From: a virus
Taxonomy: Duplodnaviria > Heunggongvirae > Uroviricota > Caudoviricetes
Reading direction: 5' to 3' (one strand)
DNA length: 64,000 nt
IMG/VR virus record: IMGVR_UViG_2541047959_000009
Made by a program: the position numbers and the translations under genes. The notes beneath the pieces were generated by a model. It ran no database searches and had not been told where the DNA came from. It saw nothing but the letters and a program-made list of their open reading frames with translations. Every line of letters starts with the position of its first letter. Positions within the stretch are counted from its first letter, which is position 1. Below, in pieces: positions 33,446-36,470 of this stretch.

Positions 33446-33490
33446 ATGTAGGAATTTCGGACGCGGGTTCAACTCCCGCCAGCTCCACCA
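33446..33490 (+). other. attachment-site core: 45-nt copy of ssrA (tmRNA) 3' end
   Basis: ATGTAGGAATTTCGGACGCGGGTTCAACTCCCGCCAGCTCCACCA matches the enterobacterial tmRNA 3' terminus; upstream sequence is not tmRNA. Confidence 0.85.
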
Positions 33491-33618
33491 ATCATGATTG
33501 GACGGTGTAAGGACAACACCAACAAAAACAGGAAGTTAGAAGTCTCAGCAGGACACCGACCAGACGGTGAGGAGACATAAAAGGATACGCAAAGGAGCCG
33601 CGGCTCCGAAGTGAAATG

Positions 33619-33646
33619 AAAGCCCGCTGATGCGGGCTTTTTTGCT
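33619..33646 (+). terminator. rho-independent terminator
   Basis: Stem AAGCCCGC/GCGGGCTT followed by TTTTT. Confidence 0.6.
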
Positions 33647-33875
33647 TCTTCTCTTTAGCCTGATTCGACACTCTCAATGCGGCCATAAACAACAACCCAC
33701 TTTTCTTATACCGTAGCCTGTCCCCCTCTTCCTGCTTTCTAACCATAACAGATGTGAGCGTTTGCTATGAGCGATATATAGTCATTCGTACCCTCCGATA
33801 CTAATCATCACAGAAATTAATATATTCATTCCTTACTGAAAAGCTATGAAGTAGATATATAGGATTGGGGCGCGT

Positions 33876-34073
33876 ATGGCACTGGACAGTTATGCATCTC
33901 CGAATATTATTCCGGAGCTAAGACAACCGAATGCCGCAGCAGGTAAGATCACGCTAGGGGGGCTGGACAGAATGGCTGTTACGCCCAGTGTGAAGAAAAG
34001 AAGGCTAAGTATGGTAGAATTTCCATACGCACAGACCTTGTTATCCGACTATACAGCCTGGAAGGCACTATGA
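33876..34073 (+). CDS. hypothetical small ORF overlapping start of downstream gene (ATGA)
   Basis: 65-aa ORF, 4-nt overlap suggests translational coupling. Confidence 0.3.
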   Translation: MALDSYASPNIIPELRQPNAAAGKITLGGLDRMAVTPSVKKRRLSMVEFPYAQTLLSDYTAWKAL

Positions 34074-34858
34074 CAAATCTACAACTGGAAGAAAGATTTA
34101 GGGCGCTTGAGAAAGATTACGATGCGCTCATTTCCACAAAATATACTGCGCAGAACGTTCTCACTCACACTATGGAAACCTATGTTGATTCTGGTAAATA
34201 TAAAAACTGGATCGCCAGAGTGAAAAAGTTAATAGAGGACAGCTACGGAAAAGAGTCTGATTATTACAATGACTTCAATACTGTAAACAGCAGGTGGTCT
34301 TCTAATTACAATACACTGATCAAAAGTTATAAACCGTTGTTTGATGCGGCGAGAGATGATCTTGCGCACTCTGCTGTCAGTACTAATACTCCTCAAGAAG
34401 GTTCGCCGCTGAGCCTCGTACTTAATATTCTTAACAGGTTTCCGACCTTTGTTCGCCAGTTAAAGAGGCGGTACAACGGCCGTGCGCCGCTTGAAGTTAA
34501 TGATGAGTATGACGTACAGGATTTGATTTATGCACTGCTGACGCTTCATTTTAATGATATTAGGGCGGAAGAGTATACCCCCAGCTTTGCGGGCGCGGCC
34601 TCAAGACAGGACTTTCTTTTGAAAAAAGAGAAAATTGTGATAGAGGTGAAGAAAACCCGTGAATCTCTGGGAGCGGGTAAAGTTGGTGGAGAGTTGCTTA
34701 TTGATATGGCGCGCTACCGCGCTCACCAAGACTGCGATACGTTGATCTTGTTTGTATATGACCCGGATTGCTACATAAATAATCCTTTGGGCGTGAAAAC
34801 CGATCTGGAATCTAAAGACGCGGAAGGAAAAGTGAAGGTTGTTATTGCGCAGTTCTGA
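34070..34858 (+). CDS. hypothetical protein with C-terminal PD-(D/E)xK-like nuclease motif
   Basis: 262-aa AT-rich ORF; ...RQDFLLKKEKIVIEVKKT... D-x(n)-EVK pattern. Confidence 0.6.
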   Translation: MTNLQLEERFRALEKDYDALISTKYTAQNVLTHTMETYVDSGKYKNWIARVKKLIEDSYGKESDYYNDFNTVNSRWSSNYNTLIKSYKPLFDAARDDLAHSAVSTNTPQEGSPLSLVLNILNRFPTFVRQLKRRYNGRAPLEVNDEYDVQDLIYALLTLHFNDIRAEEYTPSFAGAASRQDFLLKKEKIVIEVKKTRESLGAGKVGGELLIDMARYRAHQDCDTLILFVYDPDCYINNPLGVKTDLESKDAEGKVKVVIAQF

Positions 34859-34945
34859 CACGCTTAAGTGTCACCTTACAGGATTAGGTTTGCGGCCGTG
34901 CCAGCAGGACGAGCATGAAAAAGGCCGCTGGCACGGCCGGATTTG

Positions 34946-35239
34946 TCATCTTTGCCAGGTCAAATCAAAATCTACGTGAAAATCCGCAGGCTTAAGCTCG
35001 CAACTGCCACCACGCCCAATTAACGACGTTATGTTTACAACGTTTGAACCTGTTGAGATGGCAAGTTGAGTGTCATCTGTAAACGTGATGATTAGCATTT
35101 CAGTCTGATGAACCTGTACTCCAGTTTTCTGAAAACCAATCTGGACAGATTTCACCGTTTTCCCAACCATTTCACGGGCTTGATTGATAGAGTAATTAGC
35201 TTCAACTTGTAGGTCATTCCTGAACTTGGGTAGTGTCAT
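34946..35239 (-). CDS. hypothetical protein
   Basis: 97-aa ORF downstream of GIY-YIG gene on same strand. Confidence 0.4.
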   Translation of the reverse strand: MTLPKFRNDLQVEANYSINQAREMVGKTVKSVQIGFQKTGVQVHQTEMLIITFTDDTQLAISTGSNVVNITSLIGRGGSCELKPADFHVDFDLTWQR

Positions 35240-35449
35240 TTTACATCCTCTTTAGTGAAGTTTTCGCTATTTAAATCAGCAGCATTCCTTTTAAATCACT
35301 GGCATGTCAGCAGTGGATAGTCTGAGTGTAACGTCCAGTGAGGGGAATAAATATTGGTCAGACTTTGCACAAAAGAGCCAACTATCGCGGGCTCTCTCTC
35401 ATCATGTGCGAAAATTGACCACAATATGAAATCCAGTTCCATTCCGAAA

Positions 35450-36256
35450 TCAAAAACCGGGAGAATATCTCACAGGAGACATAGCACCTTTCTTTCTGAG
35501 ATCATCAGGAATTTTCTTACCTATATAAAGTTGTGTGATTTCAGGAGATGCCACCCTACCCCGGAAACCAAAGCGGGAACATTGAGTCGCTTCAAACTCA
35601 TCGTCTGCCTCCCATGAAGTCATCTCTGGGAAATTCTCACGGGTAGACTTGAGCCACTCATCAGCGATGTATACCCCCCTCACGATACCTCTTACTGTTG
35701 CCAGTATGATCTCAGCCTTACGAGCGCGGTCAACGCTGACACACCAGCTAAAACGTACAGCATCATAGAGGTCAATATCCTTTGAACTCCTATTAACCGA
35801 TATCATTAGGGCCTTATGTTGGAACGTAATAGTTTCAGGCTGGTACGTAGCGATTAATTCTTTTATGTGTGCAGCACCGAACTCATTACTGCCAGCACCG
35901 TTCATGATGTTAGTTAAGCCGGGATAAGCGTCTATGAGCGCTGCTTCAACCTCGTAAGCGGTCTTTTCTTCGGCCATACCGTGTCGATGAATAACATGGA
36001 TCACATCAAGACCAGCAAGTCTGATCTCTCGAAGTTGCCTGAGTTTATTATTCAGTAACTCATCATCATCCACTGCTGCAACCTCACCACGCATATGAGC
36101 AAAGACACGATTACCTTTGCCTTTACCTACATAGAACGTACTGCCATCCCTCGGGTCAATTAGGCGGTATACATACCAGCCAAGATGTTCGATTACTCCA
36201 GATGGAAATTCATTAATATCCATATCACAACGCCTATAATTTAACTTATAAGTCAC
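35450..36256 (-). CDS. GIY-YIG nuclease-domain protein
   Basis: 268-aa ORF with GWYVYRL...[13 protein letters not shown] motif; true start may be internal Met. Confidence 0.65.
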
Positions 36257-36389
36257 AAAATATGCACAATACTGTCAATTGACAACTTATAATCCCTACT
36301 AGTTAGCATTATGATTTCCAGAGTGAGGAATATAAAAATCTCTGTTTCTGGCACATAACAGCCCTTAAGATCGTAGCTCGCCATCATGG

Positions 36390-36430
36390 GGTGTCGGGGG
36401 GCGGAGGTTCAAATCCTCTCGTGCCGACCA
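36390..36430 (+). other. tRNA 3'-end-like fragment (T-arm, acceptor 3' strand, CCA), tRNA-Pro-like
   Basis: GGAGGTTCAAATCCTCTCGTGCCGACCA; no complete cloverleaf could be folded upstream. Confidence 0.4.
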
Positions 36431-36444
36431 AAAATCCCTTAAGA

Positions 36445-36470
36445 ACCAGCCTATTATGGCTGGTTTTTTT
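36445..36470 (+). terminator. rho-independent terminator after tRNA-like fragment
   Basis: Stem ACCAGCC/GGCTGGT followed by TTTTTTT. Confidence 0.65.

What the first reader, a model, noticed from the sequence alone, without database searches (positions are those of the whole stretch)
33446..36470. Two different partial RNA-gene 3' ends bracket a 3-kb integrase-less islet
Seen: a 45-nt tmRNA 3' end (33446-33490) and, 2.9 kb away, a tRNA-Pro-like T-arm/acceptor/CCA fragment (36390-36430) followed by a strong terminator. Neither is a complete gene. Between them lie only accessory nuclease-fold genes. Inference: remnants of successive integrations at tRNA/tmRNA att sites, i.e. a tandem array of P2-like prophage, decayed element and second prophage.
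Basis: partly seen in the sequence, partly recalled or inferred. Interest (0 to 1): 0.4.

Follow-up and report, generated by a model that had tools for sequence, protein, structure and literature searches.

The report
Prophage attachment scars flanking defence genes
The two partial RNA genes are real phage attachment-site scars at the E. coli tmRNA gene, a well-known integration hot spot. The 3-kb "islet" between them is anti-phage nuclease cargo of the second prophage, not a separate decayed element, so this is ordinary prophage architecture.

Summary
Window 33446-33490 is 45/45 identical to the ssrA 3' end, and 36384-36430 is 46/47 identical to the tRNA-Pro(GGG) proL 3' end, followed by a strong terminator. 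Neither is a complete gene.

The window is E. coli S88.
- Intact ssrA lies 0.6 kb left of the window. The ssrA fragment is attR of a Fels-2/RE2010-type P2-like prophage; UTI89 and about 110 other genomes lack that prophage.
- The islet plus the second prophage form one 43-kb unit. It is bracketed by about 190-bp ssrA-derived repeats, with a third, damaged ssrA fragment next to glaH outside the window.
- That unit carries an integrase 86% identical to the Int of phage LLS, which targets ssrA.
- The proL fragment is not an integration scar made at proL. S88's proL is intact and unoccupied, 476 kb away.
- It is an orphan phage attP core. From the core rightwards the DNA is 98-99% identical to prophages that sit at proL in other strains. 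No proL-type integrase is present.
- So prophage 2 is a mosaic with a swapped integration module.
- The islet holds defence cassettes: CMoRE/PD-T4-3 (solved structure) and a PD-(D/E)XK nuclease. GmrSD lies just beyond.

Verdict: ordinary, low interest.

The parts
1..33490 (.). P2-like (Fels-2/RE2010-type) prophage inserted into ssrA. Its left end (attL, intact ssrA and a BRCT-domain gene) lies just left of window position 1.
   Evidence: S88 annotation. UTI89 and others lack it and have intact ssrA joined directly to window 33491 onward.
31082..32101 (+). Integrase of the P2-like prophage, next to the CI repressor gene (30447-31079).
   Evidence: Annotation. ORF list.
32106..33329 (+). 407-aa cargo gene of unknown function between the P2-like int and attR.
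   Evidence: PHROG 7835 at E=4.8e-180; no Pfam or PADLOC hit.
33446..33490 (+). ssrA 3'-end fragment. It is the attR core of the P2-like prophage. In strains without that prophage the same bases are the 3' end of intact ssrA (attL core of prophage 2).
   Evidence: 45/45 identity. Rfam tmRNA 3' end, E=4e-11. 52 nt (33440-33491) are 100% identical to phages RE2010/SEN8/Cartapus.
33491..33642 (+). Post-ssrA flank with terminator (33618-33641). It is the phage-supplied part of the roughly 190-bp LLS-type att repeat that regenerates and terminates ssrA.
   Evidence: 91% to LLS attP, 96% to the ST131 ssrA prophage attL, and 91% to the degenerate copy at the far right end of prophage 2. Terminator.
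33876..34073 (+). 65-aa ORF overlapping the start of the next gene (ATGA). Doubtful gene.
   Evidence: No family hit. In other genera cassette homology begins only at 33963.
34070..34858 (+). PD-(D/E)XK nuclease protein with a C-terminal DpnII/MboI-type REase domain. Candidate defence gene.
   Evidence: Pfam PF18742, E=9.5e-49. PADLOC Aga_Helical-REase (C-terminal part), E=1e-26. Found with orf97 in a lambdoid prophage hot spot in Enterobacter.
34946..35239 (-). 97-aa ORF convergent with the nuclease gene. It co-travels with it in Enterobacter sp. kpr-6.
   Evidence: 86% aa identity, same arrangement.
35450..36223 (-). CMoRE / PD-T4-3: a GIY-YIG type IV restriction endonuclease that cuts 5hmC/glucosyl-5hmC DNA.
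   Evidence: PADLOC PD-T4-3, E=8.5e-136. PDB 9U7U, E=5e-173. Same accession, WP_000353910.1, as the crystallised APEC O1 protein.
36350..36383 (+). Decayed tRNA-Pro 5'-half-like sequence. The acceptor strand is mostly kept and the D arm is destroyed.
   Evidence: Anchored-alignment p about 0.002. Fold.
36384..36430 (+). proL 3' end from anticodon loop to CCA: an orphan attP core of a proL-integrating phage.
   Evidence: 46/47. Same core in Eeyore/Flotzy attP directly downstream of their int genes, and at attL/attR of proL prophages.
36431..36470 (+). Phage-type proL terminator (stem 36441-36468), the start of the P' arm.
   Evidence: Matches the phage version (AACCAGCC...GGCTGG), not the chromosomal version..
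36672..36889 (+). DinI-like pseudogene, part of the proL-type P' arm.
   Evidence: Annotation. Same pseudogene follows intact proL in SW071614 and E203449.
37275..39164 (+). Single-chain GmrSD type IV restriction enzyme (probably the UTI89 'UT enzyme').
   Evidence: Pfam GmrSD_N and GmrSD_C. PADLOC mREase_IV, 1415 bits. Same protein accession in UTI89. PMC4437046.
39266..39388 (-). Truncated DNA invertase remnant next to the tail-fibre genes.
   Evidence: Annotation.
39415..64000 (-). Body of prophage 2 (tail fibres, Mu-like baseplate/tail, HK97-type head, terminase, lysis, Q, early genes). It continues about 12.8 kb beyond the window to xis-int, three cargo genes and the degenerate ssrA attR.
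   Evidence: Annotation. Mosaic map.

Best explanation
The region is the junction between two prophages stacked at the tmRNA gene of an ST95-type E. coli (S88).

(1) A Fels-2/RE2010-type P2-like phage integrated into ssrA. It regenerated the gene at its left end and displaced the old 45-nt 3' end to window 33446-33490 (attR).

(2) Everything to the right belongs to one older 43-kb ssrA-integrated lambdoid prophage of the LLS functional type. This includes the 3-kb islet, and it runs about 12.8 kb past the window end. The phage's attP supplied the ssrA 3' end, a 150-nt flank and a terminator (33491-33642). Its integrase sits at the far right, followed by a damaged, displaced ssrA fragment next to glaH.

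(3) The islet is cargo in the att-proximal arm of that prophage. It is built from independently mobile anti-phage nuclease cassettes: the PD-(D/E)XK gene with orf97, and CMoRE/PD-T4-3. Together with GmrSD they probably protect the lysogen against phages with modified cytosine.

(4) The proL fragment is an orphan phage attP core that marks a mosaic joint. The late and tail half of prophage 2 comes from a phage lineage that integrates at proL. The xis-int-attP module comes from an ssrA-integrating lineage. The old proL core and its terminator were carried along and are now non-functional.

Shown: the coordinates, identities, repeats, integrase relationships, empty sites and gene identities.
Inferred: the order of events, that the hybrid arose by recombination at or next to the core, and that the islet excises with the prophage.
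For: - Window identified as S88 2798891-2862890.
- Intact ssrA lies 606 nt left of the window. UTI89, APEC O1 and others have ssrA joined directly to 33491 onward.
- A third ssrA-like copy (185 bp, 91%, with a 5-nt deletion near the 3' end) lies between the cargo downstream of prophage 2's int and glaH.
- Prophage 2 Int is 86% identical to LLS Int. LLS attP is annotated in the record as a tmRNA pseudogene, and the LLS paper deduces ssrA as the target.
- Prophage 2 Int is unrelated to the proL-type Int clade (Eeyore versus SW071614, 77%).
- A 95%-identical Int in ST131 strain 4993 also sits between ssrA and glaH. That prophage carries a type II R-M system plus a CMoRE homologue in the same arm.
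- Right of the proL core, the window is 98-99% identical to DNA immediately following the intact proL gene in SW071614 and E203449 (attL arm). The tail module matches E203449's proL prophage at 97.6%.
- Eeyore and Flotzy have int, then the proL-type attP, then DinI, invertase and tail fibre in the same order.
- There is no proL-type integrase and no second proL core between smpB and glaH. S88's proL is unoccupied.
- The islet occurs in 113 of 5,426 complete genomes. Int plus its cargo occurs in 118. The islet is always at ssrA together with the proL core and GmrSD.
- The cassettes occur separately in other prophage hot spots.
Against: - No free or circular phage form joining the int-side arm to the islet through a single attP was found in viral or metagenome contigs.
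- No sequenced phage carries the islet. Co-excision of the islet with prophage 2 is therefore inferred, not shown.
- Near-identity across the ST95 clade means the 113/118 co-occurrence is largely one inherited event.
- Homology to proL-type prophages starts exactly at the left edge of the core, and the left flank looks like a decayed tRNA 5' half. Both fit a site-specific event at a pseudo-att site at least as well as simple homologous exchange.
Confidence: 0.8

Rival explanations
1. The islet is the decayed remnant of an independent integrative element that has lost its integrase. It sits in a three-member tandem array (P2-like prophage, remnant, second prophage) built by successive integrations at ssrA and at a tRNA-Pro site.
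For: The islet has no integrase and is flanked by two att-type fragments. ssrA is a known hot spot with tandem arrays. In some strains IS3-mediated deletions leave the islet with almost none of prophage 2 (L022).
Against: - The two flanking fragments come from different genes, so they are not an att pair.
- No ssrA fragment separates the islet from prophage 2.
- The ssrA repeat partner lies beyond prophage 2's integrase.
- The chromosomal proL is 476 kb away and empty.
- There is no second proL core and no proL-type Int.
- Equivalent ssrA prophages carry defence cargo in the same arm.
Confidence: 0.08
2. Same components, different history. A proL-type phage integrated through its own integrase into a tRNA-Pro-like pseudo-attB already present in the resident ssrA-type prophage. 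The two related prophages then collapsed by homologous recombination, which deleted the proL-type int and the second junction. The fragment would then be an attL-like (B-O-P') scar rather than an unrecombined attP.
For: High identity to proL-type prophages begins exactly at the core's left edge. The window's left flank does not match the P arms of SW071614, Eeyore or Flotzy. The left flank resembles a decayed tRNA-Pro 5' half (p about 0.002), whereas the other P arms do not. The backbone is shared at 94-99% on both sides, which would allow collapse.
Against: No attR-like partner or proL-type Int remnant survives. P arms differ among proL phages anyway. A crossover within the 46-nt shared core by general recombination gives the same boundary. 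p = 0.002 on 31 nt is only suggestive.
Confidence: 0.2
3. The proL-like sequence is a functional RNA gene: a phage-borne tRNA-Pro or a tRNA-like regulatory RNA with its own terminator.
For: The acceptor and T arms can still pair, and a strong terminator follows.
Against: ARAGORN and Rfam find no tRNA. The D arm and anticodon stem are destroyed by a 5-nt insertion and mismatches. The fold is no better than shuffles, z = -0.9. The terminator is the standard phage-supplied proL terminator seen at attL in proL lysogens.
Confidence: 0.02

Closest known systems
tDNA-island signature and tandem arrays at the tmRNA gene (Islander; Williams 2002/2003, cited through PMC4383910)
   Same: An intact ssrA plus displaced 3' fragments in the same orientation mark the island ends. 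Each of the two prophages has its own integrase and its own fragment. The outermost fragment carries a small deletion near the 3' end, a kind of damage Islander explicitly allows for.
   Different: A fragment of a second, unrelated tDNA (proL) lies inside the outer island. It is not an island endpoint.
Phage LLS (PQ299149; PMC12315714) and LLS-type ssrA prophages such as the one in ST131 strain 4993
   Same: Int is 86-95% identical. attP/att repeat is the ssrA 3' end plus a 150-nt flank and terminator. The yfdP/Q/R-xis-int early-left arm is the same. Cargo sits on both sides of att.
   Different: LLS and the ST131 prophage have no proL core. Cargo and late genes differ. S88 prophage 2 has a Mu-like tail and HK97-type head module shared with proL-type prophages.
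proL-integrating prophages and phages (E. coli SW071614 and E203449 prophages; phages Eeyore and Flotzy)
   Same: Identical 45-46-nt core, phage-type terminator, then DinI, GmrSD or CMoRE, invertase and tail fibre. Identity is 98-99% from the core rightwards.
   Different: They sit at yejM-proL with a proL-type Int (77% clade) and a second core at yejO. The window copy has neither. Its left flank is unrelated to their int-side arm.
Fels-2 / RE2010 / SEN8 P2-like phages that integrate at ssrA
   Same: 52 nt spanning the att core (33440-33491) are 100% identical. The order cI, int, att is the same.
   Different: This copy has extra cargo (orf407, an AIPR-family gene). Its replication gene A is annotated as frameshifted, so it may be defective.
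Prophage-borne type IV restriction cargo: CMoRE/PD-T4-3 (PMC12923530) and GmrSD (PMC4437046)
   Same: The GIY-YIG protein has the same accession as the crystallised APEC O1 CMoRE. GmrSD is described as prophage-borne next to tail-fibre genes.
   Different: Neither paper's text, as searched here, describes the att-site context or the adjacency of the two enzymes.

Membership tests
tDNA-integrated island (Islander definition): P2-like prophage | Intact target tDNA at one end and a same-orientation 3' fragment at the other, with a tyrosine integrase between them. | tested here: met
   ssrA at S88 2797922-2798284. Fragment at window 33446-33490, 45/45, + strand. Int at 31082-32101. Empty-site strains exist.
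tDNA-integrated island: prophage 2 including the islet | A tDNA (or its regenerated end) and a cognate displaced fragment bracket the element, which contains an integrase of matching specificity. | tested here: met
   An ssrA-derived repeat of about 185-197 bp lies at 33446-33642 and at window-equivalent 76553-76760. Int is 86% identical to LLS Int, whose ssrA specificity is deduced from prophage context, not measured. A true empty site for this element was not found; only IS3-mediated deletions were seen.
Independent integrative element: the 3-kb islet alone | Its own integrase (or a remnant of one) and its own pair of cognate att repeats. | tested here: not met
   No integrase-like ORF or tblastn hit. 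The borders derive from different genes, ssrA and proL. There is no internal ssrA fragment.
proL-integrated prophage | Intact proL at attL, a second core copy at attR, and a proL-type integrase next to attR. | tested here: not met
   Only one core is present, and the 5' half is decayed. No proL-type Int lies within the 80-kb smpB-glaH interval. S88's genuine proL is empty. Only the core and P' arm are of proL-phage type.
Functional tRNA / tmRNA gene | A complete cloverleaf or complete tmRNA detected by covariance or heuristic models. | tested here: not met
   ARAGORN finds 0 genes. Rfam gathering search finds 0 hits. The tmRNA hit scores 34 bits against a gathering score of 47 and covers the 3' end only.
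CMoRE / PD-T4-3 type IV restriction endonuclease | Full-length match: an N-terminal GIY-YIG domain plus the C-terminal modified-cytosine-sensing domain. | tested here: met
   PADLOC PDLC04031 covers residues 1-255 of 257, E=8.5e-136. PDB 9U7U covers the full length, E=5e-173. Same accession, WP_000353910.1. Activity was not tested here.
GmrSD type IV restriction enzyme | DUF262 (GmrS) N-terminal domain and DUF1524 (GmrD) C-terminal domain in one chain. | tested here: met
   Pfam GmrSD_N, E=7e-34, and GmrSD_C, E=4e-20. PADLOC mREase_IV full length.

The most novel reading that the evidence does not exclude
The orphan proL core is not only a fossil but a live recombination joint. On this reading, att cores carried inside prophages serve as docking or exchange sites. 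An incoming proL-type phage could use its own integrase to recombine site-specifically with the resident ssrA prophage. That would swap whole late-gene and defence modules, and it would create hybrids whose junctions coincide with att cores. This would make integrase-mediated exchange, rather than homologous exchange, a driver of lambdoid mosaicism and of defence-cargo turnover at this hot spot.
Probability: 0.1. Interest if true: 0.45.

Novelty: new member of a known kind. Interest (0 to 1): 0.15.

Why it matters
The main value is correct annotation.
- The ssrA-glaH interval of ST95 ExPEC strains (S88, UTI89, APEC O1) holds two stacked prophages, not three elements.
- Two experimentally studied type IV restriction enzymes against T-even phages, CMoRE/PD-T4-3 and GmrSD, sit side by side as cargo of the same mosaic prophage. 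An uncharacterised PD-(D/E)XK nuclease cassette lies next to them.
- The orphan proL core is a tidy, datable marker of an integration-module swap between two lambdoid lineages.
- It is also a caution for island-finding software: a tDNA fragment inside an island need not mark an island end.
None of this changes current understanding.

Tried and rejected
- I looked for a free-phage or circular attP junction (int-side arm, a single ssrA-like segment, then the islet) in IMG/VR and JGI metagenome contigs. There were no hits.
- Three IMG/VR contigs carry the islet plus the proL core. They are prophage predictions that include host flanks or break inside the att repeat, so they are not informative.
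- An exact search for the left-flank/core junction in GTDB representative genomes gave no hits.
- tblastn of the PD-(D/E)XK protein against sequenced phages gave no match. The CMoRE homologues found in sequenced phages are under 45% identical and are mostly in jumbo phages, so they say nothing about context.
- I tested whether LLS gene 30, next to its attP, is a CMoRE homologue. It is not.
- I tested whether the LLS or ST131 ssrA-type phages carry a proL core. They do not.
- I looked for a true empty site for prophage 2. Strain PE144 turned out to be an IS3-mediated deletion.
- Williams 2003, 'Traffic at the tmRNA gene', is not held in the library. It is cited only through Islander's text and reference list.
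- I considered that the fragments are intact genes that were misread. This is rejected.
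Full report
**Identity of the window.** Megablast places window 33300-36600 at 100% identity in E. coli S88 (NC_011742.1), MS7163 and N53. Window position 1 corresponds to S88 2798891 on the + strand.

**Check of the observation.**
- ARAGORN finds no tRNA or tmRNA gene in the 64 kb. Rfam at gathering scores finds nothing.
- With relaxed thresholds, Rfam aligns 33420-33490 to the 3' end of the tmRNA model (E=4e-11, 34 bits against a gathering score of 47).
- Bases 33446-33490 are 45/45 identical to the last 45 nt of S88 ssrA, and identity stops exactly at 33446.
- Bases 36384-36430 are 46/47 identical to the last 47 nt of proL, tRNA-Pro(GGG). The stretch runs from the anticodon stem/loop to CCA.
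- Core words from each fragment occur once in the window, against zero in shuffles.
- A strong terminator follows at 36441-36468.
- Between the fragments lie a 262-aa protein with a DpnII/MboI-type PD-(D/E)XK domain, a 97-aa ORF and a 257-aa GIY-YIG protein. There is no integrase.
The only correction is that the proL identity starts 6 nt further left than stated.

**The ssrA fragment.**
- Intact ssrA lies at S88 2797922-2798284, 606 nt left of the window. It is followed by a P2-like prophage that fills window 1-33490. That prophage ends with cI, int (31082-32101), a 407-aa cargo gene and then the fragment.
- UTI89, APEC O1, IHE3034 and about 110 other complete genomes lack this prophage. In them intact ssrA is joined directly to window 33491 onward.
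- Phages RE2010, SEN8 and Cartapus match 33440-33491 at 100%.
- The fragment is thus attR of a Fels-2/RE2010-type P2-like prophage, exactly the tDNA-plus-displaced-fragment signature described by Islander.

**What lies to the right is one unit.**
- Right of the islet is a lambdoid prophage with a Mu-like tail, an HK97-type head, lysis genes, Q and a ymfK/T/L early region. It ends outside the window with yfdP/Q/R, xis, a 390-aa integrase (S88 2872287-2873459), three cargo genes and then glaH.
- Between that cargo and glaH there is a third ssrA-like copy. It is 185 bp at 91% identity to window 33458-33642. It comprises the ssrA T-arm/acceptor region, with one substitution and a 5-nt deletion near the 3' end, plus the same 150-nt flank and terminator.
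- Islander explicitly tolerates such small 3'-proximal deletions in displaced fragments.
- The integrase is 86% identical to the Int of phage LLS. The LLS record annotates a 'tmRNA pseudogene' attP followed by the same flank and terminator. Its authors deduce integration into the ssrA 3' end.
- A 95%-identical Int in ST131 strain 4993 belongs to another prophage between ssrA and glaH, with the same 197-bp att repeat.
- Hence the islet plus prophage 2, window 33446 to window-equivalent 76760 (43.3 kb), has the full signature of a single ssrA-integrated element.

**The proL fragment.**
- S88's own proL (2322084-2322160, between yejM and a yejO remnant) is intact and unoccupied, 476 kb away.
- Phages Eeyore and Flotzy carry the same 45-nt proL core immediately downstream of their integrase genes. 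It is followed by a terminator, DinI, invertase and tail-fibre genes.
- In strains SW071614, E203449 and Ec-050-T5, related prophages sit at the real proL. The order there is yejM, intact proL, phage-type terminator, DinI pseudogene, GmrSD (or a CMoRE homologue), invertase remnant, tail fibres. A proL-type Int and a second core lie next to yejO.
- From the core rightwards, the window is 98.6% identical to SW071614 (36373-39469). Its tail module is 97.6% identical to E203449 (41371-47650).
- The terminator after the window's core is the phage version, not the chromosomal one.
- The proL-type integrases form their own clade (Eeyore versus SW071614, 77%) that is unrelated to prophage 2's Int.
- tblastn finds no proL-type Int anywhere between smpB and glaH, and there is no second proL core.
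- LLS and the ST131 ssrA-type prophage have no proL core.
- The fragment is therefore a phage-borne attP core. It was inherited with the late-gene half of a proL-integrating lineage and stranded when the xis-int-attP module was replaced by an ssrA-type one.
- The mosaic map shows the pattern: ssrA-type att repeat, unique islet, proL-type arm and tail, shared early region, ssrA-type xis-int, unique cargo, att repeat.

**How the joint arose is less certain.**
- Similarity to proL-type prophages begins exactly at the core's left edge. The window's left flank does not match their int-side arms.
- The 34 nt left of the core look like a decayed tRNA-Pro 5' half: about 23 of 31 positions match, with two gaps, empirical p about 0.002. 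The P arms of SW071614 and Eeyore show no such similarity.
- This fits either general recombination within the shared core or an integrase-mediated event at a tRNA-like pseudo-att site followed by collapse of two related prophages.
- I cannot separate these two histories. Both leave the main conclusion unchanged.

**The islet as cargo.**
- The GIY-YIG gene is CMoRE/PD-T4-3. It gives a full-length PADLOC hit (E=8.5e-136) and a match to PDB 9U7U (E=5e-173). It has the same accession (WP_000353910.1) as the APEC O1 protein crystallised and shown to cut 5hmC/glucosyl-5hmC DNA.
- Just beyond the proL core lies single-chain GmrSD. It has the same protein accession as in UTI89, whose enzyme is described as prophage-borne next to tail-fibre genes.
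- The CMoRE cassette (35414-36355) occurs alone in a lambdoid hot spot in strain TUM13936. Homologues occupy the att-proximal arm in ST131 4993 and E203449.
- The PD-(D/E)XK gene with orf97 (33963-35273) occurs at 82% nucleotide identity between the replication genes O/P and DUF1367/RusA/Q of a lambdoid prophage in Enterobacter sp. kpr-6, next to a KwaB-like gene.
- So the islet is an accretion of mobile defence cassettes in a prophage cargo hot spot, not the stump of an integrative element.
- In E. coli complete genomes it occurs in 113 of 5,426, always at ssrA and always followed by the proL core and GmrSD, except where IS3 has deleted DNA. The int-plus-cargo end occurs in 118.

**Limits.**
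- Co-excision of the islet with prophage 2 is inferred. No circular or virion form was found.
- The co-occurrence statistics largely reflect one clade.
- The ssrA specificity of the LLS-type Int is deduced from prophage contexts, not measured.

**Verdict.** It is wrong in two respects: there is no separate decayed element, and there was no integration at tRNA-Pro here. The biology is textbook, covering tDNA-targeting prophages, lambdoid mosaicism and defence cargo near att sites. The only mildly new item is an orphan attP core marking an integration-module swap. Interest is low.

Noticed in passing
window 35450-36223 (-) and 37275-39164 (+): Two type IV restriction enzymes that depend on modified cytosine sit about 1 kb apart on either side of the orphan proL core: CMoRE/PD-T4-3 (structure 9U7U) and single-chain GmrSD. 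Together they form an anti-T-even cluster on one prophage. The searched text of the CMoRE paper mentions neither prophage context nor GmrSD.
   Followed up: partly
window 33963-35273: The PD-(D/E)XK (DpnII/MboI-domain) gene and the convergent 97-aa ORF travel together. The pair is 82% identical at the nucleotide level in a lambdoid prophage of Enterobacter sp. kpr-6, next to a KwaB-like gene. This is a candidate uncharacterised one- or two-gene defence cassette. Its only solved relative is the nuclease domain of EcbAgaN (E=2e-4).
   Followed up: partly
outside the window: S88 2873451-2875321 (L003:18452-20322, - strand): Three cargo genes lie between prophage 2's int and attR: a 303-aa protein with a weak HATPase_c_2 hit, a 108-aa STAS-like DUF4325 protein, and a 199-aa protein with no hit. 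None matches PADLOC. They may be an unclassified defence or regulatory module.
   Followed up: partly
window 12076-13776 (+), 22642-24051 (-), 32106-33329 (+): The P2-like prophage carries extra cargo. It has an AIPR-family (abortive-infection-related) gene between the baseplate V and virion-morphogenesis genes. It has a 469-aa hypothetical gene beside the portal gene. It has a 407-aa gene (PHROG 7835, unknown function) between int and attR.
   Followed up: no
window 24959-27399 (-): The replication endonuclease (gpA) gene of the P2-like prophage is annotated as frameshifted, so this prophage may be unable to replicate.
   Followed up: no
window 39266-41000; loci L017 vs L018/L023: The DNA invertase next to the tail-fibre genes is reduced to a 42-aa remnant. 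Even so, the two tail-fibre-assembly ORFs (147 and 200 aa) appear in opposite order and orientation in different strains (gene tables). The invertible segment has apparently flipped, perhaps through an invertase acting in trans.
   Followed up: no
loci L019, L020, L022, L027 (other E. coli strains): IS3-family elements (ISEc52-like) have repeatedly inserted near the proL core or ssrA and deleted parts or nearly all of prophage 2. This leaves variants such as ssrA, islet, IS3, right-end cargo, glaH, or simply ssrA, IS3, glaH.
   Followed up: partly
locus L026 (CP021288.1): In at least one strain a different element occupies ssrA to the left of the islet in place of the P2-like prophage. It encodes an AlpA-like regulator, an H-NS N-terminal-domain protein and several small ORFs. 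This shows further traffic at the same site.
   Followed up: no
window 36401: The single mismatch to proL (T to G, in the variable-loop region) is shared with the proL-like fragment near the end of the Gifsy-2 record. It may be an attP polymorphism rather than a recent mutation.
   Followed up: no
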